Assembly (NCBI GenBank): GCA_043228905.1
Contig: JBHGNT010000013.1
Location: 12,896,001 to 12,960,000 of the forward strand
Direction: 5' to 3'
DNA from: Azolla caroliniana
Taxonomy: Eukaryota; Plantae; Polypodiophyta
DNA length: 64,000 nucleotides
Numbering within the stretch: position 1 is the first letter of the stretch; every line of letters starts with the position of its first letter. The notes under the pieces were generated by a model. It was not told where the DNA came from. It was given only the letters and a program-made list of their open reading frames with translations, and made no database searches. A program made the position numbers and the translations under genes. Positions 46,116 to 64,000 of this stretch are shown here, piece by piece.

Positions 46116-46470
46116 AAAATATGTCACTATGATAGAGAGCAAAATAGGACAACTTGGCTGAGTGGTTAACACGTTTGACTTGGCCATTGGGAAGATATTC
46201 CTCGTAAGGAATAGTTTTGGGAATTAGTGTAGTAGGCTCATTTATGAGCGGTAAAGTACTGTCAGTATTTGTGTCAGCCCGATTGTCAGGGCTTGTATAA
46301 AAGGTGATCACTGAGCACGGTGTATGTACAGATTCAGTATTATTTTGAATTGAGTTATTGTGTGTTCTCTCACTTTGTCACTCCCGCATATTGTGTATAT
46401 TCAAGCTCTCCATTAAACCTGCGTATTTTCTGTGTTCAGTTTTCTATTGCTTCCGCACGCTATTCTTTTC

Positions 46471-47620
46471 AGGAAACAAGGTTACAAAGAGTAGGCTAAG
46501 GGCTAAAGATTGATGTTGAAGCAAATGAGTTGTGATGAATGAATAGACACCTATTTATAGGTCCTTATGGAATGTTCTAGAATGTTCTAAAATATTCTAG
46601 ATATTTATGATATTTAATATAATCATGGAATATCCTAGAATGTTCTAGAATATTCTAGAATACTCTATATATCTTGAAATAACTAATAATATATTTATTA
46701 TAAATAGATATCATATATGTTATGATAATGGTTAAAGGTCTAACATATAAACCAAGACGTCTTGGGATTGAATCCTTGTAAGGCCAAAATGTATGTCTTC
46801 ATGACATTATCCTCCCTTTTCGACAACGAGTTCCACTAGTCGGAAGACAAGATTTAGGACTTTGCTTATGGGGATATTTGTTGTGAAACACAACAACCAT
46901 TTTGGAAGCATTAGCAAGATTCTCGAAAGGTTCCCATGTTCGATCATTAGGTGTATAACCTAACTAGTCAACCAAATAATATAGTTTGTTGCGAACGATC
47001 TTGGAATTGAGAATGGCAGCAACTTCATCTTCGAAGCCATTTGAAACTTCGGTTGGAGGTGGGGGAGATGTAAGACGACCTGGAATAGAGTTGGTTCTGT
47101 AGGGCTCCAAAAGTGAAACATGGAAGACCGAGTGAAGATGCATATGAGGGGCGAGATCAAGGCAAAATGCCACATCAGTAATCTTACCAGATATCACATA
47201 TAGGCCAAAACGTTGATAATCCAATTTGCAGCAAGGTCGGGTTGTTTTAATGTGCCCTTGAAAAACCCATACTCGATCTCCCACTGTCGATGAATCACGT
47301 CGATGACAGTCGGCAACCTTCTTTTGAGTGTTTTAAGCATCACATAAATGGTGCAAAAGGATATCTTGAACTTCTTGGAGTCACCTGAGCTGATCTTCAA
47401 CAATCGGGTTCGTCGAGATTCAGGATGTTCAAGGATAGTCGAACGAGGATGGTACCCAATGTTTGCAAAAAATGGGGAATATTGCTCGGGGACCAAACAA
47501 GGAAAAACAGCTACTTTATCTCGGCGTTCATATATGGAACTTCGACCAGGAGAGGCCACATGAAAGTTAGAAGAAAATCCTCTTTGGTCTTGACCGTCTA
47601 CGACTAATGGCATTTCATGT
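46471..47620 (-). mobile_element. Chromovirus (Tcn1-like) gypsy remnant: integrase end with chromodomain, PPT and partial LTR (46471-46806)
   Basis: HSVFHVSLLEPY; VAAILNSKIVRNKLYYLVD...RTWEP chromodomain; PPT AAAAGGGAGGATAA. Confidence 0.85.
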
Positions 47621-47707
47621 TATAGACACACCCGGGGATTCAATTCTTCTAGCCTACTCTTTGTAACCTTGTTTCCTCATAATATAATCTCATTTCCATT
47701 TCAACGC

Positions 47708-47710
<3 letters not shown>

Positions 47711-47774
<64 letters not shown>
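47711..47774. repeat. (CT)n microsatellite within an LTR fragment
   Basis: Direct observation. Confidence 0.95.
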
Positions 47775-47777
<3 letters not shown>

Positions 47778-48292
47778 CTCACGAGTCATGATAGTCCTCC
47801 AATTGTCGACATTAATTTCCGTTAAGAATAACTATTCCTTTATGCATTTTTGGTTTCCTTATTATCAAGCTTAGATAGATAACATTTCCAACATTTTAAT
47901 GTGGACAATACTAAAATCGATTCATAAAAACTAGAAACAATTTTCCCGACTACTTATGGTGGTGGACTCAAAATCAAATGTTTGCTTCTCGGAGCTTGGA
48001 ATCCTACATTTGTAGACTTTCTTTTAAAATCTTTGATGTTGTCATCGTTGATTTAAATCGACCCATTGTGTGGCAAACCAATACATATCACAATTTACAG
48101 AGGTGACATCTATCATGAATATTTGACCGCTTAAGCCAAATGTGTCAATATTAGCCCGACTCCATATTTTGAAAATTTTCTAATATAACCGAATATTTTT
48201 GCATTAACATAATGGAAACTAAGAAACTCATTAGACGGATTACACAAAATATTAATAGTTTTATTATCTCATGCTAGAAGCCAACCAAATAT

Positions 48293-48373
48293 CGCAAATT
48301 GGCCGAGTGGTTAAGGCGTTTGACTTGAAATCAAATGTGTTCGCCCTCGCAGGTTGGAATCCTATAGTCGTCG
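48293..48373 (+). pseudogene. tRNA-Ser: tRNA-Ser(TGA) copy, degenerate
   Basis: Mismatched acceptor stem and T loop. Confidence 0.75.
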
Positions 48374-48948
48374 AGATTCTTTTACTATGTTTTGGAAACT
48401 ATTTACAAACATTGAGCTTTTGTGCTTTAAACATTAAATATCCCAATAGTAATCAAATGTATGTGCACTAACATACTTGTGAACACTTAAATCGTATCGC
48501 TACCCAAAGAATAAAGACTCATTATTTTCCAATATCCTACCTTATTAGCATGCTTAGATAAAAAATATTTTCAACATTTAATTACAACCAATAGTAAAAT
48601 ATGTTATCGTAGATGGCTACATAGGATAATTAAGCCTAGTTGGTAAGTCGTTTGAGTAGATATGAAATGTGTTCCCCCTCGTAGGTTTGAGCTTGACATA
48701 AGCTAAAAAATCAATATCCCATCTTAGGAAGAAGTGGTCAACATATAGACTAAACTAAAAAAATTTTAACACATTTGTGAACATTGGCTTCCCTATCTAT
48801 CATTAAATCAGGCTTACCTAAAGAAATGTAATTGCAATAAGTTAGTAGTGACCACATAAAGAGTAGCATTACCTTAAGAATAACTACTCTTTCTGGCGTT
48901 TTTCTTTCGCGTATTATCAAGCATATATAGTACGTGCCAACAAAATAC

Positions 48949-49029
48949 GGTAATTTGGCCGATTGGTTAAGGCGTTTGACTTGAAAGCAAATGGGTTCGC
49001 CCTCGCAGGTTCGAATCCTGCAGTTGCCG
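48949..49029 (+). tRNA. tRNA-Ser: tRNA-Ser(TGA), near-intact
   Basis: Acceptor pairs with G:U, perfect T arm, one anticodon-stem mismatch. Confidence 0.65.
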
Positions 49030-49364
49030 ACATTCTTCCATTTAGGTGTTGAAACTATTCACTAACATTGCATTCTTCCGTTTAGGTGTTTGAAATTGTT
49101 CCCTAATATTGAGCTTCTACTCTTTAAACAGTAAATATCCCATTTTAGGAACAAGACTCACAGAGGAAACATGACTTTTAATGTCCCATGTGTTAATAGT
49201 AGCTTCCCCAGGGATTGGAGAAAGGGGCTAAATCGTATCGCTACCCAAAAAATAAAGACTTATCATTGTCATGTTTTCTGCTTTATTAGCATGCTTAGAA
49301 AGAAAATATTTGCAACATTTAATTCCAAATAATACTAAAATATGTAACTATCATAGCAAAAAAG

Positions 49365-49445
49365 GACAACTTGGCCGAGTGGTTAAGATGTTTGACTTGA
49401 AATCAAATGGGTTCGCCCTCGTAGGTTCGAATCCTGCAATTGTCG
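49365..49445 (+). tRNA. tRNA-Ser: tRNA-Ser(TGA), near-intact
   Basis: Cloverleaf with D-stem mismatches; downstream TTTT. Confidence 0.6.
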
Positions 49446-49787
49446 ACATTCTTTTCCAATAAGAATAACTACTCCTTCGTGTGTTTTTCGTTTGCTTATG
49501 ATCAAGCTTAGATAGATAATATCTCCAACATTTTAGTGTGCACAACACTCAAATCGATCCATGAAAACTAGAAACAATTTTCCCGACTACTTACGGTGGT
49601 TGATTCAAAATCAAATGTTTGCTTCTTGGAGCTTGGAATCCTACATTTCGAGACTTTCGCTACCCAAAATATAAAGACTTATATTAGACCTCTTTTCTGT
49701 TTTTTTAGCATGCTTAGATAGATAATATTTACAACATTTAATTATAACCAATACTAAAATATGTAACTATGACAATGACCAAAATAG

Positions 49788-49868
49788 GACAACTTGGCTG
49801 AGTGGTTAAGGTGTTTGACTAGAAATCCAATGGGTTCACCCTCATAGGTTCGAATCCTGCAATTGTCG
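49788..49868 (+). pseudogene. tRNA-Ser: tRNA-Ser(AGA) copy
   Basis: Several stem mismatches. Confidence 0.7.
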
Positions 49869-50523
49869 ACTTTGTTTTAGTTAGGTGTTGACTATTTTAA
49901 ATAACATCGATATTTTTTTATGTGAACCAATGCATCTTCCTTTTCACCCTTTCTTTTCCTTTTTATTTTGCATATGCAGAATTAATTGCATTTGTGTGCA
50001 CACACATTGCACATGCACATTTCTGACCCCCCCTTTCGCCGGTTTTTCCCACCCTCGAGCATGCCACATCACGACCCTCGAGCACGCCATAACTATTTAC
50101 TAACATTTAGCTTCTGTGCTTTAAACATTAAATATCCCAATAGTAATCAAATGTATATGCACTAACATACTTGTGAACACTTAAATCGTATCAGTACCCA
50201 AAGAATGAAGACTTATTATTTTCCTATTTTCTACCTTATTAGCATGCTTAGATAAAAAATATTTCCAACATTTAATTACAACCAATACTTAAATCTGTTA
50301 TCCTAAATAGCTAAAGGCGTTTGACTAGAAATGAAATGGGTTCCCCCTAGTAGGTTCGAGCTTGACATATGTTGAACAATAAATATCCCATATCAGGAAG
50401 AAGTGGTCAACATAGAGACTAAACTAAATTTGTTAAAGCACATTTGTGAATACTAGATTCGTAGGTTCTAAAGTTTATGTTTCGCTTATTATCAAGCATG
50501 AATACTAGACGCCAACTAAATAT

Positions 50524-50604
50524 GGCAATTTGGCTAAGTGGTTAAGGCGTTTGACTTTAAATCAAATGGATTAGCCCTCCTAGGTTTGAATCGTGCAGTT
50601 GTCG
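50524..50604 (+). pseudogene. tRNA-Ser: tRNA-Ser body with TTA anticodon
   Basis: Anticodon loop CTTTAAA; damaged T arm. Confidence 0.7.
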
Positions 50605-50904
50605 ACATTCTTCCGCTTAGGTGTTGAAACTGTTCACTAACATTGAGCTTCTGTTCTTTAAACATTAAATATCCCATTTTAGGAATTAGACTCACATAGA
50701 GGAAACATGGCTTTTAATGTCCCATGTTTTAATATTAGGTTCCCCAAGGATTGGAGAAAGGGGTAAAATCGTATCGCTACCCAAAAAATAAAGACTTATA
50801 ATTGTCATGTTTTCTGCTTTATTAGCATGCTTAGATATATAATATTTGCAACATTTAATTCCAAATAATACTAAAATATGTAACTATCATTAATAGTAAA
50901 AAAG

Positions 50905-50985
50905 GACAACTTGGCCGAGTGGTTAAGGCGTTTGACTTGAAATCAAATGGGTTCGCCCTCGTAGGTTCGAATCCTGTAGTTGTCA
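50905..50985 (+). tRNA. tRNA-Ser: tRNA-Ser(TGA), near-intact
   Basis: GACAACT/AGTTGTC acceptor, intact A and B boxes; discriminator is A rather than G. Confidence 0.72.
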
Positions 50986-51469
50986 ACATTCTTTTCCGTT
51001 AAGAATAACAACTCCTTCGTGCGTTTTTGGTTTGCTTATTATCAAGCTTAGATAGATAATATCTACAACATTTTAGTGTGCACAACACTCAAATCAATCT
51101 AGGAAAACGAGAAACAATTTTCTCGACTACTTACGATGGTTGATTCAAAATCAAATGTTTGCTTCTTGGAGCTTGGAATCCTACATTTGTAGAATTTGTT
51201 TTAGAATCTTTGATGTTGTCGTCGTTGATTTACATCAAGTCATTGTGTGGCAAACCAATACATATCCCAATTTAGAGAGGCAACATCTATCATGAATATT
51301 TAACCCCTAGAGCCAAATGTGTCAATATTAGCCTGACTCCATATTTTCAAAATTTCCTAATATAACCGAATATTTTTGCATTAACATCACGCCAAGTAAG
51401 ATAATCATTAGATGGATTGCCCAAAATATTAAAAGTTGTACTATTTCATGGTAGAAGCCAACCAAATAT

Positions 51470-51550
51470 GGCAATTTGACGGAGTGGTTAAGGCGTTTGA
51501 CTTGAAATCATATGGGTTCGCCTTTGTACGTTCAAATCTTGCAATTGTCA
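51470..51550 (+). pseudogene. tRNA-Ser: tRNA-Ser(TGA) copy
   Basis: Degenerate T arm. Confidence 0.7.
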
Positions 51551-51803
51551 AGATTCTTTTACTATGTTGTGGAAACTATTTACTAACATTGAGTTTTTGT
51601 GTTTTAAACATTAAATATCCCAATAGTATTTAAACGTATGTGCACTAACATACTTGTGAACACTTAAATCATATCGCTACCCAAAGAATAAAGACTTATA
51701 CTAGTCCTCTTTTCTTCTTTATTAGGATGCTTAGATACATAATATTTGCTACATTTAATTACAACCAATACTAAAATATGTAACTATGATAGAGACCAAA
51801 TAG

Positions 51804-51884
51804 GAAAACTTGGCTAAGTGGTTAAGGCGTTTGACTAGAAATGAAATGGGTTCGCCCTTGTAGGTTCAAATCTTGCAATTGTTG
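51804..51884 (+). pseudogene. tRNA-Ser: tRNA-Ser(AGA) copy
   Basis: Multiple transitions relative to the consensus. Confidence 0.7.
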
Positions 51885-52139
51885 AGATTCTTTTACTAAG
51901 TTGTGGAAGTTATTTACTAACATTGAGCTTTTGTGCTTTAAACATTAAATATCCCAATAGTATTTAAATATATGTGCACTAACATACTTGTCAACACTTA
52001 AATCATATCGCTACCCAAGGAATAAAGACTTATAATAGTCCTCTTTTCTGCTTTTATTGGCATGCTTAGATACATAATATTTGCTACATTTAATTATAAC
52101 CAATACTAAAATATGTAACTGTGATAGAGAGCAAAATAG

Positions 52140-52220
52140 GACAACTAGGATGAGTGGTTAAGGCGTTTGACTAGAAATCAAATGGGTTCACCCTCGTATG
52201 TTCGAATCTTGGAGTTTCCA
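52140..52220 (+). pseudogene. tRNA-Ser: tRNA-Ser(AGA) copy
   Basis: Degenerate 3' half. Confidence 0.7.
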
Positions 52221-52371
52221 ACTTTGTTTCAGTTAGTTGTTGACTACTTTCAATAACATCAAGATTTTGTGATGTGAACCAATGCATCTTCTGTCTTAGC
52301 AATGCGACACACGCACACAAGCATGACTTCTTAAGTCCCATGGAACAATTTTCACGATATAAAGCTAGTAT

Positions 52372-52452
52372 GACAATTTGGCCGAGTGGTTAAGGTATTT
52401 GACTCGAAATCAAATGGGTTTGTCCTCGTAAGTTCAAATATTGCAATTGTCG
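52372..52452 (+). pseudogene. tRNA-Ser: tRNA-Ser(CGA) copy
   Basis: Anticodon loop CTCGAAA; T-arm changes. Confidence 0.7.
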
Positions 52453-52849
52453 AGATTTTGGCACTTAGGTATTATTGCTAGTAACTTATATCGAGCTTGA
52501 CATATGCTCAACAATAAATATACCATCTTAGAAAGCATTGGTCACCAGACAAAGAAAACTAAACTTTCTAAGATGCATTTTTGAATATTGGCTTCCGTAG
52601 GTATCGTAAACACAAGCCCACATAGTGAAATATAATTGCGATAACCTACTAGTGAACACATAAATAGTAGTATTACCTTAAGAATAAGTACTCTTTCTAG
52701 CGTTTTTGGTTCACTTATTATCAAGCTTAGATAGATAATATCTCCAACATTATAGTGTGGCCAATACTCAAATCGATTCATGAAAACTAGAAACACTTTG
52801 CCCGAGTGCTTATGGTGGTTGTACTATCTCATAAAAGCCAACAAAAATT

Positions 52850-52930
52850 GGCAATTTGGTCGAGTGGTTAAGGCGTTTGATTTGAAATCAAATGTGTTCG
52901 CCCTCGTAGGTTCGAAGCCTGCATTTTTCG
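52850..52930 (+). pseudogene. tRNA-Ser: tRNA-Ser(TGA) copy
   Basis: Degenerate acceptor stem. Confidence 0.7.
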
Positions 52931-53184
52931 AGATTCTTTTACTAAGTTGTGGAAATCATTTACTAACTTTAAGCTTCTATGCTTTAAACATTAAATATCT
53001 CAATAATATTCAAATGTATGTGCACAAACATACTTGTCAACACTTAAATCGTATCGCTACCCAAAGGATAAAGACTTATATTAGACCTCTTTTCTACTTT
53101 ATTAGCATGCTTAGATAGATAATATTTACAACATTTAACTACAAAAAATACTAAAATATGTAACTATGACAATGAGCAAAATAG

Positions 53185-53265
53185 GACAACTTGGCTGAGT
53201 GGTTAAGATGTTTGACTAGAAATCCAATGGGTTCGCCCTCGTAGGTTCGAATCCTACAATTGTCG
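53185..53265 (+). tRNA. tRNA-Ser: tRNA-Ser(AGA), possibly a pseudogene
   Basis: Perfect T arm GTAGG/CCTAC; mismatches in the D and anticodon stems. Confidence 0.5.
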
Positions 53266-53416
53266 ACTTTGTCTCAGTTAGGTGTTGACTATTTTCAATA
53301 ACATCGATATTTTTTTATGTGAACCAATGCATCTTCCGTCTTAGAAAGGTGACACACGTACACAAGCATGACTTCTTAAGTCCCATGGAACAATTTTTGC
53401 AATGTAAAGCTAATAT

Positions 53417-53497
53417 GATAATTTGGCCGAGTGGTTAAGGTGTTTGACTCGAAATCAAATGTGTTCGCCCTCGCAAGTTCAAATCTTGCAGTTGTCG
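53417..53497 (+). tRNA. tRNA-Ser: tRNA-Ser(CGA), near-intact
   Basis: Anticodon loop CTCGAAA; compensated T stem GCAAG/CTTGC; downstream TTTTT. Confidence 0.55.
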
Positions 53498-54163
53498 AGA
53501 TTTTTGCACTTAGGTATTATTGCTAGTAACTTATATCGAGCTTGACATGTGCTCAATAATAAATATCCCATCTTAGAAAGCATTGGTCACCACACAAAGA
53601 AAACTAAACTTTCTAATACGCATTTTGGAACATTAGCTTCCCTAGGTATCGTAAACACAACCTCACCTAGTGAAATGTAATTGCGATAACCTACTAGTGA
53701 GCACATAAATAACAGTATTACCTTAGGAATAACTACTCTTTCTGGCATTTTTGGTTCGCTTATTATCAAGCTTACATAGATATTATCTCCAACATTTTAG
53801 TGTGGACAATACTCAAATCTATTCATGAAAACTAGAAACACTTTTCCCGACTGCTTATGGTGGTTGACTCAAAATCAAATGTTTGCTTCTCAGAGGTTGG
53901 AAACCTATATTTGTAGACTTTCTTTTAGAATATTTGACGTTGCGGTCGTTGTTTTACATCGAGCCATTTTGTGGCAGACCAATACATATCACAATTTAGA
54001 GAGGCGACATCTATCATGAATATTTAACCGCTTAAGTCAAATGTGTCAATATTAGCCCGACTCCAAATATTTTTGCATTAACATAACGCCAGTGAAAAAA
54101 ATCATTAGATGGATTGCCCAAAATATTAATAGTTGTACTATCTCATAGAAGCCAACAAAATAT

Positions 54164-54244
54164 GGCAATTTGGCCAAGTGCTTAAGGTGTTTGACTTGAA
54201 ATCAAATGTGTTCGCCCTCGTAGGTTCGAATCCTATAATTGTCG
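54164..54244 (+). tRNA. tRNA-Ser: tRNA-Ser(TGA), possibly a pseudogene
   Basis: Cloverleaf mostly retained; D-loop GG changed to GC. Confidence 0.5.
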
Positions 54245-54441
54245 AGATTCTTTTACTAAGTTATGGAAACTATTTACAAACATTCAGCTACAAACAATAA
54301 ATATCCCATATTAGGAAGAAGTGGTCAACATAGAGACTAAACTAAATTTGTTAAAGCACATTTGTGAATACTAGATTCGTAGGTTCTAACGTTTATGTTT
54401 CGCTTATTATCAAGCATGAATACTAGACGCCAACTAAATAT

Positions 54442-54522
54442 TGCAATTTGGCTAAGTAGTTAAGGCGTTTGACTTTAAATCAAATGGATTCGCCCTCCTA
54501 GGTTTGAATCGTACAGTTGTTG
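54442..54522 (+). pseudogene. tRNA-Ser: tRNA-Ser body with TTA anticodon (paralogue of 50524)
   Basis: Anticodon loop CTTTAAA; damaged T arm. Confidence 0.7.
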
Positions 54523-54942
54523 ACATTCTTCCGCTTAGGTGTTGAAATTGTTCACTAACATTGAGCTTCTGTTCTTTAAACATTAAATATCCTATCTTAG
54601 GAATGAGACTCACATAGAGGAAACATGACTTTTAATGTCCCATGTGTTAATATTAGGTTCCCCAAGGATTGGTGAAAGGGGCTAAATCGTATCTTTAAAC
54701 ATTAAATATCCCATCTTAGGAATGAGACTCACATAGAAGAAACATGAGTTTTAATGTCCCATGTGTTAATATTAGGTTCCCCAAGGATTGGAGAAAGGGG
54801 CTAAATCGTATCGCTACCCAAAAAATAAAGACTTATAATTGTCATGTTTTCTGCTTTATTAGCATGCTTAGATAGATAATATTTGCAACATTTAATTACA
54901 CCCAATACTAAAATATGTAACTATCATAGATAGCAAAATAGG

Positions 54943-55023
54943 AGAAGCTAGTCGAGTGGTTAAGGTGTTTGACTTGAAATCAAATGGGTTCGCCCTCGAA
55001 GGTTCGAATCCTGCAGGTGTTGA
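54943..55023 (+). pseudogene. tRNA-Ser: tRNA-Ser(TGA) copy
   Basis: Degenerate acceptor stem. Confidence 0.7.
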
Positions 55024-55265
55024 GATTCTTTTACTAACTTGTGCAAACTATTTACTAACATTGAGCTTCTGTGCTTTAAACATTAAATATCCCAGTATTA
55101 ATCAAATGTATGTGCACTAACATACTTGTGAACACTTAAATTGTATCGCTATCCAAAGAATAAAGACTTATAATAGTCTTAATTTCTGCTCTACTAGCAT
55201 GCTTAGATAGATAATATTTGTAACATTTAATTACAACCAATACTAAAACATGTAATTATTATATA

Positions 55266-55346
55266 GACAACTTGGCTGAGTGGTTAAGGCGTTTGACTAG
55301 AAATCAAATGGGTTCGCCCTTGTAGGTTCGAATCCTGCAGTAGTCG
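55266..55346 (+). tRNA. tRNA-Ser: tRNA-Ser(AGA), near-intact
   Basis: One acceptor mismatch; other arms pair. Confidence 0.62.
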
Positions 55347-56002
55347 AATTTGTTTCAGTTAGGTTGTAGTATCTCCAACATTTTAGTGTGAACAATACTC
55401 AAATCAATTCATGAAAACTAGAAACAATTTTTTTGAGTGCTTATGGTGGTTGACTCTAAATCAAATATTTGCTTCTCGGAGCTTGGTATCCTACATTTGT
55501 AGACTTTCTTTTAGAATCTTTGATTTTTGCGTCGTTGATTTACATCGAGTATTCTCTGGCAAACCAACACATATGACATTTTAGAGATGCAAAATCTATC
55601 ATGCATATTTGACCGCTTAAGTCAAATGTGTCAATATTAGCCCGACTCCATATTTTGAAAATTTCCTAATATAACCGAATATTTTTGCATTAACATAACG
55701 CAAACTAAGAAAATCATTACGCGGATTGCCCAAAATATTAATAGTTGTACTATTTCATGGTAGAAGCTAACCAAATATGGCAATTTGTTAAGGTGTTTGA
55801 CTAGAAATGAAATGGGTTTGCCCTCATAGGTTCGAGCTTGACATATGCTGAACAATAAATATCCCATCTTAGCAGGACTACTCCTGAGAACACTATAAAA
55901 GGAGGCACAAGGCATTATTTCGAAACAAATTGGTTGAACGCCTGTCTTAACCTCAGAGCTATTTTGTATTTACTCTTCACATAATATATCATCTATTATC
56001 AT

Positions 56003-56039
<37 letters not shown>

Positions 56040-56309
56040 TTTCTCTCTTCCTCTCTCGTGGTCTTATGCAGTCAGTCCTATTAGTACTAATATTACTTCC
56101 CTTCTCTAGTATTGATTCTCTCTCTGTTTTAGTACTATTCTTGAGAGTTTGAACAAATTTCTTCCTTTTGGTCTTCTTTTCGGTTTCCCTCATCCTCTTA
56201 CTCCTTTTTCCAATACTACGGATATTGTTAGCTTCCAAGAAAATCAATCCGTTTTTTCTGAGCTTCAATGTATAAAAGAAACAATCGTTGCATTGGAACA
56301 AGAAAACCA

Positions 56310-56900
56310 ATGATTGTTAAGGGATCCAACATTTGATAATCAAAATTAGGTAATCTTGGGACCAACACGTTTGAACACAACCTGGATTTTTTAGACTCTG
56401 TTGGATTCCCGGATTATCAATGCCATACATGCCAATTTGAAGATGGACAAATTTGCTCAAGCCATTCTAGCGCAAATTGATGCCTCTCGGGCATGCTATT
56501 ACCTGTCTCAACAGCCAGGTATGGACTACAGACAATTCAAATATCATTATGCTTTATTATTCTTTAAAAAGCTCTTGTATGTTTCTGATTGCTCCAATTG
56601 CCTTCAAATCGTCCACAATTGTCACGATTTCCATACAGTTGGACATTTCGGTAGTACTAACACGTTTTATCTAGTCCGACAATCTTTTCAGTGGCGCCAT
56701 ATGCGACGTTTTGTCAACGACTACGTTTGAACCTGTGATGCTTGTTGCCAGGCAAATATGCCATGACATCATCCATATGGCTTGTTGGAATCCTTAACAA
56801 TTCCAAGTAAGCCGTGGCAATCCATTTTTCTTGATTTTATCACAGATCTTCCAGTCTTGAAGGCCTTCGATGTTATCTTAACCATCGTTGACCGATATAC
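56310..56900 (+). pseudogene. pol: Chromovirus-type gypsy integrase N-terminal fragment
   Basis: CHD...GHFG...YV*TCDACC...GLL...PWQSIFLDFITDLP...IVDRY. Confidence 0.8.
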
Positions 56901-57325
56901 TTATTTGTTTGTTATCATCATCCTCTCTCTCTCTCTTTTAGTTATTATGACTAGATAAATACTCTTTTTGTTGTAAACCAATTGTCTCATGGGCCAATTT
57001 TGGCCTTAGAAGACGTTAATATATCTTTCTTTCTTTCTTTCTTTCTCTCTCTCCTTTTCCCTCTTCCTCTGTCGTGAATCTTACGCAATTAGTCCTCTTA
57101 GTACTAATAATACTTCCCTTCTCTAGGATTAATTCTCTCTTTGTTTTAGTACTATTCCTTTCCGATAGTGATTTGTTTTGTAGTTTGTGGACTCCACATG
57201 GTTTTTCCCTTCTCGGGTTTTCTACTTTAAAATACATGTCTCTGTATTTTCTATTTTCGGTCTTCTGTTTTGTCTATACACTATCTCATTCAATTCATTG
57301 CACTCACATTCTTATATGATGAAAC

Positions 57326-59880
57326 TGTTGAGAACGCGGTCATCTTGTGCGGAACAAATCAACACTCTCCAAAGGTGAGGATCATAAGTGGATGCAGGCA
57401 AGGTAGATTGATGGCATCAGCAATAGAAACAGAGAAACAAGAACGCAAGAGAGAGAGACGATTAGCCACAAGATGAACTATATTTCAACAACACTCAAAA
57501 CTAGGTTACAAAGTCAATTTATGTATTGACTGACTTAGGGCAATTGCCTTTCTCACTATTTACATAAATAGCGTAAACCTAGTGTGTACAAAAGGAGACA
57601 ATGTGAATACGTTCATTAGAGACCCGCATTCAACACTCCCCCATAATAGGCGTATACATCGAAATTCTGTAAATCAAAATAAATGTACAATACATATTGA
57701 TACAAAAATTTCGAACAAATCGAAATTTGGTTGGAGTTGGTGAACTTCAAAAAACTAAAGGCCGAACTGGCCGAGGTTGGGGAAGCTAAAGTTGAACTTC
57801 GAACTGTCGAAGTTGACCGGGGATTATCATGTCATCCACGTAGATGATGACGAAGATGGGTGACCCATCTCGAGCTATTTTGGTGAAGAGACAGTGGACC
57901 TCATCAGTCTTCGAGCAGTCGACTGATTGAATGATGTCATCGAACTTCCTATACCACTGTCATGGTGCCTATTGCAGGCTGTAAAGAATCTTCCTAAGTC
58001 GGCAGACTAGATGTTCTTGGCCAGGGTGCGACGAAGCCTTTCGGTTGCTCCATATAAATTTCCTCCTCTAGATCATCGTGCAGGAATGTCATTTTGACAT
58101 TTAGTTGAATCAGCACCAAATTCTTGGCTGCCACAACCCCAAACATAAAGTGGAGGGTTGTCATTTTCACCACTAGTAAAACAATTTTGTCGAAATCGAC
58201 GACATATTTCTATTGAAACCCTTTCGCAATTAATCTGGCCTTGAATTTTGGGGTGGCCGAATCAGACTTCTCTTTAATTCTATAGATCCATTTGCACTGA
58301 AAAGCACATCGATTTTTCGGTAGTTCAACCAAGTTCCAAGTTTCGTTTGCTCAAATAGAGTTCATTTCGGACTCCATTGCCAGATGCCAGATGGCCGAAT
58401 CGGCAGATGCTAATGCTTCTTCGTATGATGTCGTTTCTCCAACGTCCGTTCTCTAGGGGCTGCGACATTTTCTCGGATCTTCGAGGTATGACTGGACTAG
58501 TCGCATTGGGTGTCGTAGCCAGATGGTCCGAAGCCGAAACATTCGGTTGTCCCGAGTTGGATGTTGCCGAGTCGGTACAAGAGGTTTCGGCTACCTGTGA
58601 AGCCAACCTTGTGTTGTGTGTTGGGCCTTCATGAAGGGTTGGCACATTCGTAAAAATTACCCTTCGGACTTCGATCGGGTTTTCGGCCGATTGGTGCATG
58701 CCTAACTCATTGAACAATACGTCTGAACTTCAGACAATTTTTTGTGCTCAGGGTCCTAGAGTCGGTAGCCAATTTTGCCATCTACTCCATAACCAAGGAA
58801 AATACTTTTCTTGGACCTTGGTGCAAGTTTGCGGCGATCATCTTTCGCGATGAGGCCATACGCCTCGCACCCGAAAATCCTTAGCTTATCATAAGTCGGC
58901 TTACTGCCGGTCCATGATTCTAGAGGTATCCGAAGACCTAGACGCCTGCTCGGCGACATATTGATTATGTGAACCACCATAAGCAGTGCCTTTGCCCAGA
59001 AGTTATCCGATAGTCAGGAGTGTTGGAGCAAAATCTGGGGTGCCATATATTCATGGTGTATGTTGCGTTGTCGGCAAAATCTGACAAATTCTTTAGATTT
59101 CCTCCATTGTCGGTCCAAAAGCATTTTAGTTTTCAGCCGTACTGATTTTCGACCATAACGAGAAAATCGGAAAAAATCGAGAACACTTGATCTTTAGTTT
59201 TAATTGTATAAGCCCAAACCTTCCAAGTCGAGTCGTCAATAAAGTTGACGAAATACGAGGCACCATCGAGAGTCGGATGTAGCATTGGACCACAAACGTC
59301 TGAATGGACCAAATCGAGGGGACTCGATTCTCTCGGTGCTTATGTTGGATGTGATGGGGTTATTTGTTTGCTATACTGGCAATGCTCACAGAACTCCTGA
59401 TCAGAGAAGGAGAGTTTAGGGATGTATTCGGCTCTAGATAAATGTATAATACCGGCCTTACTGAGATATCTGAGTCCATGCCAAAGTGATGACAGGGGAA
59501 TGTCGACGAAGAACAAGTCACCCTCTCTGAGTGTGACATATAACAGGTACAACGAGTGTAGTTTTAGTCCTCAAGCAAACAAGTGGTTTCCCCTGTGGAC
59601 TGTCGTCTTCGTCTAATTGTTTGTCTGAGATAAAAGGTCTTGAGAGGTCAGGTACATGTCTAACATTATGAAGTGCCAATGTAGAGCCACCCTGAAGGTT
59701 GAGCTCTACTGTGTCGATTCGATTATTGCACATTGTTGTGAATTTCCGACTCGAAATCAGTTGGAATATCGCGTTGCGTATTGCCGAAATTGGGATCGAT
59801 GAGGGGCACATGATATGAAGCGCCCGAATCCAAGAGCCATGTGCTCAATTCCTCTCTCGTGAGCAGAATTTATGATTCAA
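57326..59880 (-). mobile_element. Copia family C remnant: PR-INT-RT with internal deletions, PPT and 3' LTR (57326-57635)
   Basis: Highly similar to the reverse complement of 939-1909; LTR TGTTGA...TCAACA with PPT ATTATGGGGGAG. Confidence 0.85.
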
Positions 59881-59892
59881 CTGGGTTCCCAA

Positions 59893-61100
59893 TAGAGAGA
59901 GAGACATAAGACTTGAAATGGAAATGAGATTATTTTATGAAGAAACAAGGTTACAAAGAGTAGGCTAAGGGCTAAAGACTGGTATAGAACGGAATGAGTT
60001 GTGATGAATGAATAGACACCTATTTATAGGTCCTTATGGAGTATTCTAGAATGTTCTAGAATATTCTAGATATTTATGATATTTAATATAATCATGGAGT
60101 ATCCTAGAATGTTCTAAAATAATCTAGAATACTCTAAATATCTTGTAATAACTAATAATATATTTATGGTAACTATATATCATATATGTTATTATAATGG
60201 TTAAAGATCTAACATATAGACCAAGATGTCTTGGGCTTGAATCCCTGTAAGGCCAAAATGTATGTCTTCATGACATTATCCCCCCTTTTCAACAACAAGT
60301 TCCACGGGTCGGAAGACAAGATTTTGGAATTTGCTTATGGGGATATTTGTTGTGAAACACAACAACCATTTCGGAAGCATTAGCAATATTCTCAAGAGGT
60401 TCCCATGTTCGATCATTAGGTGTATAACCTAACTAATCAACCAAATAATACAGTTTGCAGCGAACGATCTTGGAATCAAGAATGGCAACAACTTCATATT
60501 CGAAGCCATTCGAAACTTTGATTGGAGGTGGGGGAGATGTAAGCCGACCTGCAATAGAGTTGGTCTTGTACAACTCGAAAAGTGAAACATGGAAGACCGG
60601 GTGAAGATGCATATGAGGGGGAAGATCAAGGCAAAATGTCACATCATTAATCTACCAGATATCACATATGGGCCAAAAAGTTGATAATCCAATTTGCAAC
60701 AAGGTCGGGTTATTTTAATATGACCTTGTAAAAGTCATACTCGATCTCCCACTTGAAACGTAATCGATGAATCACGTCGATGACGGTCGGCAACCTTCTT
60801 TTGAGTGTTTTAAGAATCACATAAATGGTGCAGAAGGATATCTTGAACTTCTTGGAGTCGGCTGAGCCGATCTTCAACAGTCAGGTTCGTCAGGAGTTCG
60901 GGATGTTCAAGCATAGTCGAACGAGGATGGTACCCAATGTTTGCAAAAAATGGAGAATATTGCCTTGGGACGCAACAAGTAAAAGCAAATGTTTTATTTC
61001 GACGTTCATAGATAGAACTTCAACCAGGAGAGCCCACATTTGAAAGTTAGAGTCAAATCCTCTTGGGTCTTGACCGTCTACGACTAATGACATTTCATGT
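59893..61100 (-). mobile_element. Duplicate of the chromovirus remnant at 46471-47620 (LTR part ends 60275)
   Basis: Collinear high similarity; FEYEVVAILDSKIVRCKLYYLVD chromodomain. Confidence 0.85.
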
Positions 61101-61109
61101 TACAGACAC

Positions 61110-61560
61110 ACCCGAGGATTCAAATCTTCTGAACTCCATTCAGGAGCATATTGCGACTGATGAATTCGCCCAAGACATTCTGAACAATATTATCCTAGAT
61201 TATGCTTCTTGTTAACAATCTCAAAATCTTCGTCAATACTACAACCAGTTCAATTGGCATGATGGATTACTTTTTCGACAAAATCTCTTATATGTGCCTG
61301 ATGGTCCTTCTCGACTCCAAGACTTGCAACAATGTCATGCCGCACCAATGGCTGGACATTTTGGCATCCACAAGACTTTCACGTTAATTTCTCGAAGATA
61401 TTGGTGGGCACGACTTCACCATTTGGTTATGGATTATGTTCATAATTGTGATACATGTTGCCGATCCAGAAAAACTCGACATCATTCATATGGCTTATTA
61501 CAGCCAATGCCTATTCCTGAGAGTCCATGGAAATCTATTTCATTGGACCTTATTACGGAT
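61110..61560 (+). pseudogene. pol: Chromovirus-type integrase HHCC fragment
   Basis: CHAAPMAGHFG...YWW...CDTCCR...GLLQPMPIPESPWKSISLD. Confidence 0.82.
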
Positions 61561-62127
61561 TAGCCCTTAGCCTACCATTCGTAACCTTGTTTCCTCATAA
61601 TATAATCTCGTTTCCATTTCAACTCTTATCTCTCTCTCTCTCTCTCTCTCCCTCCTACTCACGAGTCACGATAGTCCTCCAATTGTCGACATTCTTTTCC
61701 CTTAAGAATAACTACTCCTTTATGCATTTTTGGTTTGCTTATTATCAAGCTTAGATAGATAATATCTCCAAGATTTTAGTGTGGACAATACTCAAATCGA
61801 TTCATAAAAACTAGAAACAATTTTCCTAACTACTTATGGTGGTTGACTAAAAATCTAATATTTGCTTCCCATAGATAGGAATCCTACATTTATAGACTTT
61901 CTTTTAGAATATTTGATGTTGTCGTCCTTGATTTACATCGAGCCATTGTGTGGCAAACCAATACATATCAAAATTTAGTGAGGCGACATCTATCATGAAT
62001 ATTTTGAAAATTTCCTAATATAACCGAATATTTTTACATTAACATAACGCCAATTAAGAAAATCATTAGATGGATTGCCCAAAATATTAATAGTTGTATT
62101 ATCTCATGGTAGAATCTAACCAAATAT

Positions 62128-62208
62128 GGCAATTTGGCCGAGTGGTTAAAGCATTTGACTAGAAATCAAATGGGTTCGCCCTCATAGGTTCGAATCTTGA
62201 AGTTGTTG
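62128..62208 (+). pseudogene. tRNA-Ser: tRNA-Ser(AGA) copy (positional paralogue of the TGA copy at 48293)
   Basis: Same flanks as the 48293 copy; T-stem mismatches. Confidence 0.7.
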
Positions 62209-62771
62209 ACATTCTTTAACTATGTTTTGGAAACTATTTACAAACATTGAGCTTTTGTGCTTTAAACATTAAATATCCCAATAGTAATCAAATGTATGTG
62301 CACTAACATACTTGTGAACACTTAAATCATATCGCTACCCAAAGAATAAAGACTCATTATTTTCTAATTTCCTACCTTATTAGCATGCTTATATAGAAAA
62401 TATTTTCAATATTTAATTATAACCAATACTAAAATATGTTATCGTAGATGCCTACATAGGATAATTAGGCCAAGTTGTTAAGGCGTTTAAGTAGATCCCA
62501 CTCGTAGGTTTGAGCTTGAGATAAGTTGAAAAATAAATATCCCATCTTAGGAAGAATTGGTCAACATATAGAGTAAACTAAATTGTATAAAACACATTTG
62601 TGAACATTGGCTTCCCAATCTATCTTCAAAACAGCCTAACCTAATGAAACGTATTTGCAATAAGCTAGTAGTGAACACATAAATAGTAGCATTACCTTAA
62701 GAATAACTACTCTTTCTAGCGTTTTTCTTTCGCTTATTGTCAAGCATAGATAGTAGATGCCAACTAAATAC

Positions 62772-62846
62772 GGCAATTTGGCCGATTGGTTAAGACGTTT
62801 GACTTGAAAGCAAATGGGTTCGTCCTTGCAGGTTCCAAACTTGTAG
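62772..62846 (+). pseudogene. tRNA-Ser: tRNA-Ser(TGA) copy, 3'-damaged
   Basis: Paralogue of 48949. Confidence 0.65.
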
Positions 62847-63062
62847 CTCTATAAACAGTAAATATCCCATCTTAGGAATAAGACTCGCATAGAGGAAACA
62901 TCACTTTTAATGTCCCATGTGTTAATATTAGGTTCCCAAGGGATTGGAGAAACGGGCTAAATCGTATCGCTACCCAAAAAATAAAGACTTATAATTGTGT
63001 TGTTTTCTACTTTATTAGCATGCTTAGATAGATAATATTTGCAACATTTACTTACAAAATAG

Positions 63063-63143
63063 GACAATTTGGCCGAGTGGTTAAGGCGTTTGACTTGAAA
63101 TCAAATGGGTTCGCCCTCGTAGGTTCGAATCCTGCAATTGTCG
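63063..63143 (+). tRNA. tRNA-Ser: tRNA-Ser(TGA), fully folding; best functional candidate
   Basis: GACAATT/AATTGTC acceptor, G discriminator, GCC/GGC D stem, TTTGA/TCAAA anticodon stem, GGG-TTCG-CCC variable arm, GGTTCGAATCC B box, upstream CAA and downstream TTTT. Confidence 0.8.
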
Positions 63144-63919
63144 ACATTCTTTTCCCTTAAGAATAACTACTCCTTCATGCGTTTTTGGTTTGCTTATTAT
63201 CAAGCTACTATAGATAATATTTCCAACATTTTAGTGCGGACAATAGTAAAATCGATTCATGAAAACTAGAAACAATTTTCCTGATTGCTTATGGTGGTTG
63301 ACTCAAAATCAAATGTTTGCTTCTCGGAGTTTGGAATCCTACATTTGTAGACTTTCTTTTAAAATCTTTGATGTTGCCGTCATTGATTTACATCGAGCCA
63401 TTGTGTGGCAAACCAATCCATATCACAATTCAGAGAGGCGAAATATATTATGAATATTTGACCGCTTAAGTCAAATGTGTCAATATTAGGCCGACTCCAT
63501 ATAACCGAATATTTTTGCATTAACATAACGCCAACTAGGAAAATCATTAGACGGATTGACCAAAATATTAATACTTGTACTATCTCATAGAAGCCAAAAA
63601 ATTATGGCAATTTGGCCAAGTGGTTTAGGCGTTTGCCCTCGTAGGTGCCAATCCTGTAGTTGTCAAGATTCTTTTAGTAAATTGTGGAAACTATTTACTA
63701 ACATTGAGCTTTTGTGCTTTAAACATTAAATATCCCAATAGTAATCAAATGTATGTGCATTAACATACTTGTGAACACTTAAATCGTATCGCTTCCGAAA
63801 GAATAAAGACTTATAATAGTCTTTTTTTCTGCTTTACTAGCATGCTTAGATAGATAATATTTGCAACATTTAATTACAACCAATACTAAAACATGTAACT
63901 ATCATAAAGAGAAAAATAG

Positions 63920-64000
63920 GACAACTTGGACGAGTGGTTAAGATGTTTGACTAGAAATCAAATGGGTTCGCCCTCGTAGGTTCGAATCCTACAATTGTTG
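63920..64000 (+). pseudogene. tRNA-Ser: tRNA-Ser(AGA) copy
   Basis: D-stem and acceptor mismatches; perfect T arm. Confidence 0.65.

What the first reader, a model, noticed from the sequence alone, without database searches (positions are those of the whole stretch)
46116..64000. Large tandem tRNA-Ser gene array behaving like a complex satellite
Seen: about 21 near-full and about 6 partial head-to-tail copies of one 81-nt class II tRNA-Ser over at least 18 kb. Most keep an upstream CAA motif and a downstream T-rich tract. They are separated by a small set of reshuffled AT-rich spacer modules, with no poly(A) tails or TSDs. A few copies fold fully (63063, 50905); most carry C>T/G>A changes. 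Known: tandem tRNA arrays exist (Arabidopsis Tyr-Tyr-Ser and Pro clusters, Entamoeba arrays), and tRNA genes act as heterochromatin barriers at fission yeast centromeres. Inference: a silenced birth-and-death tRNA cluster bordering a retrotransposon stack, possibly with a structural (centromeric or boundary) role or acting as a tRNA-fragment source.
Basis: partly seen in the sequence, partly recalled or inferred. Interest (0 to 1): 0.8.

Follow-up and report, generated by a model that had tools for sequence, protein, structure and literature searches.

The report
Decaying three-anticodon serine tRNA cluster
One chromosome of this plant carries about 126 tandem copies of a single serine tRNA gene with three different serine anticodons; most copies are damaged and now change as fast as the DNA between them, while five still match intact copies in related organisms, so it is likely an old working tRNA cluster that is dying off in this lineage rather than a centromere or a jumping element.

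Summary
The array is real and larger than reported: 126 hits in 17 blocks (about 40 kb of array DNA) over 420 kb of one chromosome, split by retrotransposons, and present in DNA runs of four studies. The body derives from the host's dispersed tRNA-Ser(CGA) gene, yet the 82 full copies carry UGA (51), AGA (17), CGA (9) or UUA (5) anticodons. Sister copies now diverge at spacer rate (observed/expected 0.99, 0.91). But contigs of relatives (L112, L128) hold the same cluster with intact CGA, UGA and AGA genes: tRNA 7% versus spacer 29% divergent, and five own copies match them outside the anticodon (0.08 expected). Verdict: an ancestral, once-selected one-body, three-anticodon serine cluster in birth-and-death decay, the serine counterpart of plant Pro homoclusters. 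Not a SINE; a centromere or boundary role is unsupported. Expression is untested. The scan's notes held no record of this array, only a giant-virus parallel.

The parts
46116..46182 (+). Spacer end plus 5' third of a tRNA-Ser copy, cut at the anticodon and embedded in Gypsy DNA
47795..55851 (+). Main array block in the window: 17 full-length tRNA-Ser copies (TGA, AGA, CGA, TTA), partial copies and dead-subfamily copies, with reshuffled AT-rich spacers
53185..54244 (+). Module AGA (53185) - CGA (53417) - dead copy (53837) - UGA (54164); the same order stands in relative contig L112 (558, 778, 992, 1349)
50905..50985 (+). tRNA-Ser(UGA) copy with all stem pairs and both boxes intact but discriminator G changed to A
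50524..50604 (+). Copy with UUA (ochre-reading) anticodon; 3 broken pairs and both promoter boxes changed, so likely inactive; a sister stands at 54442
55852..61660 (.). Retrotransposon DNA inserted in the array; its right part (59942-61600) repeats the Gypsy-type fragment at 46473-47795 (84-90% identical, duplicated together with the array block that follows it)
61675..64000 (+). Second array block (4 full copies in the window: 62128, 62772, 63063, 63920); continues beyond the window end
63063..63143 (+). Intact tRNA-Ser(UGA): no broken pair, A and B boxes as in the dispersed gene, G discriminator, upstream CAA, downstream TTTT; identical over 81 nt to L112:1349 in a relative

Best explanation
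This is a tandem cluster of about 126 copies of one nuclear tRNA-Ser body carrying UGA, AGA and CGA anticodons, which likely arose from the dispersed tRNA-Ser(CGA) gene, was likely kept functional by selection in the ancestor shared with relatives, and in this lineage has mostly decayed, with about five copies possibly still working. Steps: (1, shown) the body is 3 changes from the dispersed CGA gene, 15 from the UGA gene and 20 from the AGA gene; (2, inferred) after tandem duplication, position 34 changed C>T and to A, re-creating the UGA and AGA isoacceptors from the CGA body, which serine charging tolerates because it does not read the anticodon (established knowledge, recalled); (3, shown by divergence) tRNA bodies stayed almost unchanged while spacers diverged 22-43% between organisms; (4, inferred from mutation pattern) the cluster became CG/CHG-methylated and was invaded by LTR and LINE elements; (5, shown) 1-6 kb blocks of array plus element were re-duplicated at about 8-10% divergence, and sister copies have since drifted at the spacer rate; (6, inferred) the few intact UGA and AGA copies died last or are still under selection and would add to a small dispersed set (2 UGA and 3 CGA loci found).
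For: Origin: dispersed Ser genes found by pattern, 16 matches = 9 AGA, 2 UGA, 5 CGA (3 loci + 2 near-identical duplicates on small contigs); distances 3/15/20. Past selection: over the 42 positions not fixed by my search pattern, 6 copies from L112 and L128 differ from the own majority at 18 of 252 sites versus 431 of 1474 in flanks, p=5e-16 (the damaged copy L112:558 was left out of the total: 3/42 free, 10/80 all, flanks 58/242); the dead subfamily, an internal neutral control, differs at 13/75 and 21/75; L112 vs L128 bodies differ 2/81 with flanks 36-43% apart; two-sided pair changes at 5-76, 6-75 and 60-70; same AGA-CGA-dead-UGA order. Present decay: 33 polarised sister pairs, tRNA changes 220 vs 223 expected from flanks and 200 vs 220 in the reciprocal run; pair-breaking changes 62 vs 66.7 expected, promoter-box changes 74 vs 67.4. 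Survivors: 5 of 82 full copies (4 lineages) have zero differences, outside position 34, from intact copies of relatives; Poisson expectation 0.08; their flanks changed as much as others (0.065 vs 0.072). Reality: covered in 29-30 of 30 bins by runs X1, X4, X5, X6; run X12 of another organism label has 118 contigs with array-type letters and some spacer pieces.
Against: No expression or methylation data were seen. The relatives' evidence rests on two short contigs (3.0 and 1.1 kb) found by a pattern that demands 39 exact bases, so intact copies are favoured; flank orthology is only best-match, and a dispersed-locus flank from the same assembly as L112 is 94% identical to the own locus (L105 vs L037), so L112 may be an old paralogous branch or array spacers evolve fast. 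The zero-difference excess also follows if copies simply died at different times. Intact copies have weak terminators (TTTT in four, T7 in one) and less stable cloverleaves than the dispersed gene (-20.5 to -22.8 vs -24.8 kcal/mol). The compensatory pairs were counted on copies picked for being intact.
Confidence: 0.75

Rival explanations
1. A tRNA-derived satellite that never worked as a cluster: one CGA pseudogene was amplified as selfish tandem DNA, and the anticodon variants are mutational noise.
For: Recent divergence is neutral; 77 of 82 full copies differ from the intact forms, mean 7 changes; CGA>TGA is a plain CpG deamination; block duplications look like satellite turnover.
Against: tRNA bodies 7% vs flanks 29% between organisms while the dead subfamily diverged like flanks; three serine anticodons intact side by side in L112; 77 of 82 own full copies keep a serine anticodon.
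Confidence: 0.08
2. The cluster is still a conditionally expressed serine supply, silent in most tissues and switched on in a specific cell type as for the Arabidopsis SYY cluster; damaged copies are tolerated around a working core.
For: Five intact copies in four lineages with normally diverged flanks; few dispersed UGA and CGA genes; precedent in PMC12308677 (abstract and section 7 read).
Against: Only 5 of 126 copies intact and scattered over 400 kb, no core of identical copies; no pool-wide selection signal; no CGA copy is intact in this genome (nearest has 5 changes).
Confidence: 0.3
3. The array has a structural role as centromeric repeat or as heterochromatin barrier through TFIIIC binding.
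For: It lies in a retrotransposon-dense stretch; many copies keep one promoter box (A box or B box); tRNA barriers at fission-yeast centromeres are known (recalled).
Against: About 40 kb in 17 blocks on one chromosome; COPA, PPR, kinase genes between blocks and an MA3 gene 27 kb past the last copy; elements lie on both sides and inside; A/B boxes are not protected from change (74 vs 67.4 expected).
Confidence: 0.06
4. A tRNA-derived SINE or other mobile element, or an assembly artefact.
For: One orphan piece of about 1 kb on C3; C200 and C309 repeat parts of the array.
Against: All 56 exact-pattern matches and all 44 spacer matches (40 of 61 candidates scored) fall in the C13 array, C200, C309, the C3 orphan or the dispersed CGA genes; the orphan is a multi-copy fragment without poly(A); C200/C309 are 97-99% identical to C13 and read as second haplotypes (inference); independent runs hold it.
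Confidence: 0.02

Closest known systems
Plant tRNA-Pro homoclusters with mixed AGG/TGG/CGG anticodons (PMC13437025 Table S3 sheet 1 seen; PMC7544208 abstract and section 13)
   Same: Tandem, same-strand, one amino acid, three anticodons of one four-codon box, irregular spacing.
   Different: Serine UCN box instead of proline; here the dispersed AGA, UGA and CGA genes have clearly different bodies (15-20 nt) and the cluster re-made two of them from the third; far more copies, about 94% damaged; broken up by retrotransposons. The sheet lists serine homoclusters only for GCT (apple) and shows no fern.
Arabidopsis SYY (Ser-Tyr-Tyr) cluster (PMC7544208; PMC12308677 abstract and section 7)
   Same: Serine tRNA array of about 40 kb, cluster-specific sequence variants distinct from dispersed genes, pseudogenes toward variable regions, methylation (there measured, here inferred), shared by related species.
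   Different: No tRNA-Tyr; no regular unit; no core of identical copies; expression here not shown.
Moss (Cpu, read as Ceratodon purpureus from memory) and maize tandem tRNA clusters (PMC12652284 passages)
   Same: Large tandem tRNA arrays in land plants outside Arabidopsis; same-amino-acid pairs with different anticodons, serine among them, are reported.
   Different: Those are mostly identical copies; its supplement could not be read, so a listing of this cluster there is not excluded.
tRNA-derived plant satellites (Benslimane et al. 1986; only the reference-list title seen in PMC4411372; paper not held)
   Same: Tandem repeat whose unit goes back to a tRNA gene.
   Different: Here the tRNA is still whole, with intact members and conserved counterparts in relatives: an earlier stage of such a path at most.
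Entamoeba tRNA arrays (PMC2652664, search listing and abstract start only)
   Same: Tandem tRNA genes with AT-rich spacers.
   Different: Those hold almost all tRNA genes of the genome in homogeneous units; here the main genes are dispersed and the array is a small, decaying extra.

Membership tests
Plant tDNA homocluster (Hummel et al. definition) | At least 5 tRNA genes within 5 kb, one isotype | tested here: met
   17 full copies in 7.9 kb of the window, serine body; definition from PMC13578239 passage. If only high-confidence genes count, it is not met in this genome (5 intact copies over 400 kb) but L112 has 4 full copies with no broken pair plus one cut clean copy in 3 kb.
Plant tDNA homocluster (Hummel et al. 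definition) | Adjacent copies in the same orientation | tested here: met
   100 + strand copies in the main stretch; 26 - strand copies in separate inverted blocks
SYY-type silenced cluster | Cluster-specific sequence variants distinct from dispersed genes | tested here: met
   Position 5 differs from the dispersed gene in 82 of 82, position 76 in 80 of 82
SYY-type silenced cluster | High DNA methylation and transcriptional silence | tested here: inconclusive
   Only indirect: CG/CHG sites change several times faster than A/T sites; no methylome or tRNA-seq
SYY-type silenced cluster | Ser-Tyr-Tyr unit; cell-type reactivation | tested here: not met
   No tRNA-Tyr in the window; reactivation not testable here
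Functional tRNA-Ser gene | All stem pairs, A and B boxes, U33, G discriminator, long variable arm | tested here: met
   Met by 5 of 82 full copies; a sixth passes pairs and boxes but has a changed anticodon loop
Functional tRNA-Ser gene | Transcription, maturation and charging | not testable with these tools
   No raw tRNA reads were offered
tRNA-derived SINE | Dispersed copies with tail and target-site duplication | tested here: not met
Centromeric satellite | Long homogeneous array, on most chromosomes, gene-poor surroundings | tested here: not met
   About 40 kb, one chromosome, host genes between blocks
Centromeric satellite | CENH3 binding | not testable with these tools
   No ChIP data available

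The most novel reading that the evidence does not exclude
A plant lineage keeps a dedicated serine-supply cluster that re-invented the whole UCN isoacceptor set (IGA, UGA, CGA) from one tRNA body, is switched on in a special tissue like the Arabidopsis SYY cluster, and can be watched at different stages across relatives: more intact in some, collapsing into a tRNA-derived satellite here, with five survivors still under selection.
Probability: 0.3. Interest if true: 0.65.

Novelty: new variant of a known kind. Interest (0 to 1): 0.42.

Why it matters
Tandem tRNA clusters are known in plants, so the kind is not new. This one adds three things: a serine-only cluster in which two isoacceptors were re-made by anticodon shift although unrelated dispersed genes for them exist; direct evidence, with an internal dead-copy control, that such a cluster was under selection and then lost it; and a natural series across relatives for the open question of whether plant tRNA clusters are adaptive or by-products (stated as unresolved in PMC13578239, passage). 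Diagnostic letters let a single tRNA-seq experiment separate array products from dispersed ones.

Tried and rejected
RNA: no RNA holder listed; two runs guessed as RNA laid 0 contigs; no evidence either way. Run X11 (organism C) covered 6 of 30 bins with 11 contigs, mostly tRNA-only; lack of cover shows nothing. Primer-binding-site test: a search for retroelement primer sites or CCA-ended copies matching the array or dispersed 3' end gave 0 matches for either type: uninformative. First selection test classed sites by the union of both sequences, which inflates the CHH class in AT-rich flanks; replaced by the polarised test. The excess of 'repair' changes (13 vs 3.4; 9 vs 2.5) fell to 1 when polarised by the array majority: read as mis-polarisation, though that check leans on an intact majority. 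An early idea of a fungal or horizontally gained tRNA (recalled likeness to yeast tRNA-Ser) was dropped once the host's own dispersed CGA gene was found. Of 78 loci held from the metagenome scan (84 stretches reported), only L112/L113, L128 and L129/L130 matched spacers; the other hits were to one unmasked 36-nt tRNA remnant. L129/L130 are 93-99% identical to the own array and were not used as an independent relative. TRF found no array-wide period.
Full report
Observation. The reported copies are there. nhmmer with the 63063 copy finds 35 plus-strand hits between 46148 and 64000: 21 full-length, 6 partial and 8 of an old dead subfamily. ARAGORN genes with TGA, AGA, CGA and one TTA anticodon; Rfam passes 19. 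CAA upstream is present in 16 of 21 and TTTT downstream in 13 of 21. In the window the array is two blocks separated by 6.3 kb of retroelement DNA.

Extent. The window is G000:C13:12896001-12960000. I fetched C13 12,606,001-13,120,000, all of C200 and C309, and 30 kb of C3. A scan with the dispersed gene gives 126 hits on C13 (100 +, 26 -), 46 on C200, 6 on C309 and 2 on C3. On C13 they form 17 blocks, about 40 kb in all, from 12.646 to 13.064 Mb. C200 and C309 align to C13 at 97-99% and read as second haplotypes; C200 carries one 5.9-kb block twice. Genome-wide, all 56 matches of an anticodon-arm pattern and all 44 matches of a spacer query, 40 of 61 candidates scored, lie in these places or at the dispersed CGA genes. 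Four DNA runs from four studies cover 29-30 of 30 bins of 47700-56000. So it is neither an artefact nor a dispersed SINE; the C3 orphan is a 1-kb multi-copy fragment without poly(A).

Origin. A pattern for UCN serine genes returns 16 matches: 9 AGA, 2 UGA and 5 CGA, the last being 3 loci plus 2 near-identical duplicates; this is a lower bound. The array majority differs, outside position 34, by 3 nt from the dispersed CGA gene, 15 from the UGA gene and 20 from the AGA gene. Yet the 82 full copies carry TGA 51, AGA 17, CGA 9 and TTA 5. The UGA and AGA forms were therefore most likely re-made from the CGA body by anticodon shift (inference; such shifts are a known process, bioRxiv 10.1101/2020.07.24.220558, passages). 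The dead subfamily keeps C34 with G35>A, which fits a CGA founder.

Present evolution is neutral. I paired full copies by flank similarity (35 disjoint pairs, 33 with an outgroup), chose pairs on one flank and measured the other. tRNA changes were 220 against 223 expected from flank rates by context, and 200 against 220 in the reciprocal run; no context class differed significantly; pair-breaking changes (62 vs 66.7; 59 vs 61.5) and promoter-box changes (74 vs 67.4; 64 vs 60.0) were not depleted. This holds although only the better-preserved 82 of 126 copies entered. CG and CHG sites change several times faster than A/T sites in tRNA and spacer alike, with equal C>T and G>A (52/54), as expected for methylated DNA (inference). 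Blocks of array plus retroelement were re-duplicated at 90-93% identity; 89 of 120 kb in the main stretch is inserted DNA, with three LTR-like pairs at 92-95%.

Past evolution was not neutral. A metagenome scan with a 39-nt pattern gave 84 stretches. Two contigs, L112 and L128, carry the same cluster with spacers about 70-76% identical to the own ones. L112 has 10 copies in 3 kb: four full copies without a broken pair (CGA, UGA, AGA, CGA; the last has lost its G discriminator), one clean copy cut by the contig end, one damaged AGA and four dead ones; L128 has intact CGA and UGA and one dead copy. L112:1349 is identical to window 63063. On the 42 positions my pattern did not fix, six copies differ from the own majority at 18 of 252 sites against 431 of 1474 in flanks (p=5e-16); L112:558 was left out of that sum; the dead subfamily differs at 13/75 and 21/75, like flanks. 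The order AGA-CGA-dead-UGA is shared. Among ten intact sequences, three pairs show two-sided change, a partly circular count. Run X12, under another organism label, laid 118 contigs whose tRNA part mostly has array-type letters, with a downstream flank like that of L128. Caveats: short contigs, pattern bias, best-match flanks, and a 94% identical dispersed-locus flank between L105 and L037, so spacer distance is not a clean species distance.

Survivors. Five of 82 full copies (3 UGA, 2 AGA; four lineages) equal intact relatives' copies outside position 34; a Poisson with the mean of 7.0 expects 0.08, and their flanks changed as much as the others'. Two of them are identical over 81 nt with flanks 19-26% apart. 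They died last or are still selected; the data cannot tell which.

Centromere or boundary. Between the inverted blocks and the main stretch lie COPA, PPR and kinase genes, and an MA3 gene sits 27 kb beyond the last copy. Retroelements lie on both sides and within. Promoter boxes are not conserved. PMC13437025 reports tRNA genes depleted from plant centromeres (passages), but partly from a proxy based on tRNA gaps (supplement 4), so I give it little weight. CENH3 binding is untested.

Comparison. The nearest kind is the plant homocluster with mixed anticodons, common for proline (PMC13437025 Table S3 sheet 1), and the Arabidopsis SYY cluster, silenced by methylation (PMC7544208, abstract and section 13) and reactivated in root cap cells (PMC12308677, abstract and section 7). 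It works like these in origin; it is not an SYY member. Seven paper searches and the sheet showed no serine UCN homocluster of this kind; PMC6786969 mentions tRNA only in methods and references; PlantRNA 2.0 notes many tRNA pseudogenes in some ferns and gymnosperms without describing arrays (passages). The supplement of PMC12652284 could not be read and three supplements of PMC13437025 and the other sheets were not read; they may bear on novelty. Earlier scan notes held nothing on this array.

Verdict. Real; a once-selected three-anticodon serine tRNA cluster now mostly decayed; new variant of a known kind; interest 0.42, rising to about 0.65 if the survivors or the relatives' clusters prove tissue-specifically expressed.

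Noticed in passing
G000:C15:354852-355462 (L040-L043): Four identical canonical tRNA-Ser(AGA) genes in tandem at about 186-bp period: a second, young and intact serine mini-cluster with a different body.
   Followed up: no
window 50524 and 54442; C13 13022811, 13045611, 12648712: Five full copies have a UUA (ochre-reading) anticodon, from at least two origins; all have a changed promoter box and 1-4 broken pairs.
   Followed up: partly
G000:C3:5719768-5720750 (L010): Orphan 1-kb array fragment joined to a Gypsy-type fragment of the family that also sits in the array; no poly(A).
   Followed up: partly
G000:C200 2435-8365 and 46078-52008: The same 5.9-kb block of C13 13.0606-13.0665 Mb appears twice on this contig: copy-number difference between haplotypes or an assembly fault.
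   Followed up: no
G000:C13 12888818-12892246 vs 13087782-13091179: 3.4-kb inverted duplicate (95%) next to the MA3 gene; may mark the rearrangement that inverted the 12.874 Mb array block.
   Followed up: no
L096, L100, L102, L126, L147, L149, L158, L162: Unrelated organisms in metagenomes also have close-packed serine tRNA genes sharing one body with AGA, CGA and TGA anticodons, with unrelated spacers: the one-body arrangement arose more than once.
   Followed up: no
window 47784-47806 and 61660-61690: The end of a retroelement joins directly to the last 8 nt of a tRNA copy, so an element landed in, or a deletion ended in, a tRNA body; the junction was then duplicated.
   Followed up: no
L028:1917-6062 and L047:4045-8205: Two Copia elements with unbroken 1,380-aa reading frames upstream of the window.
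   Followed up: no
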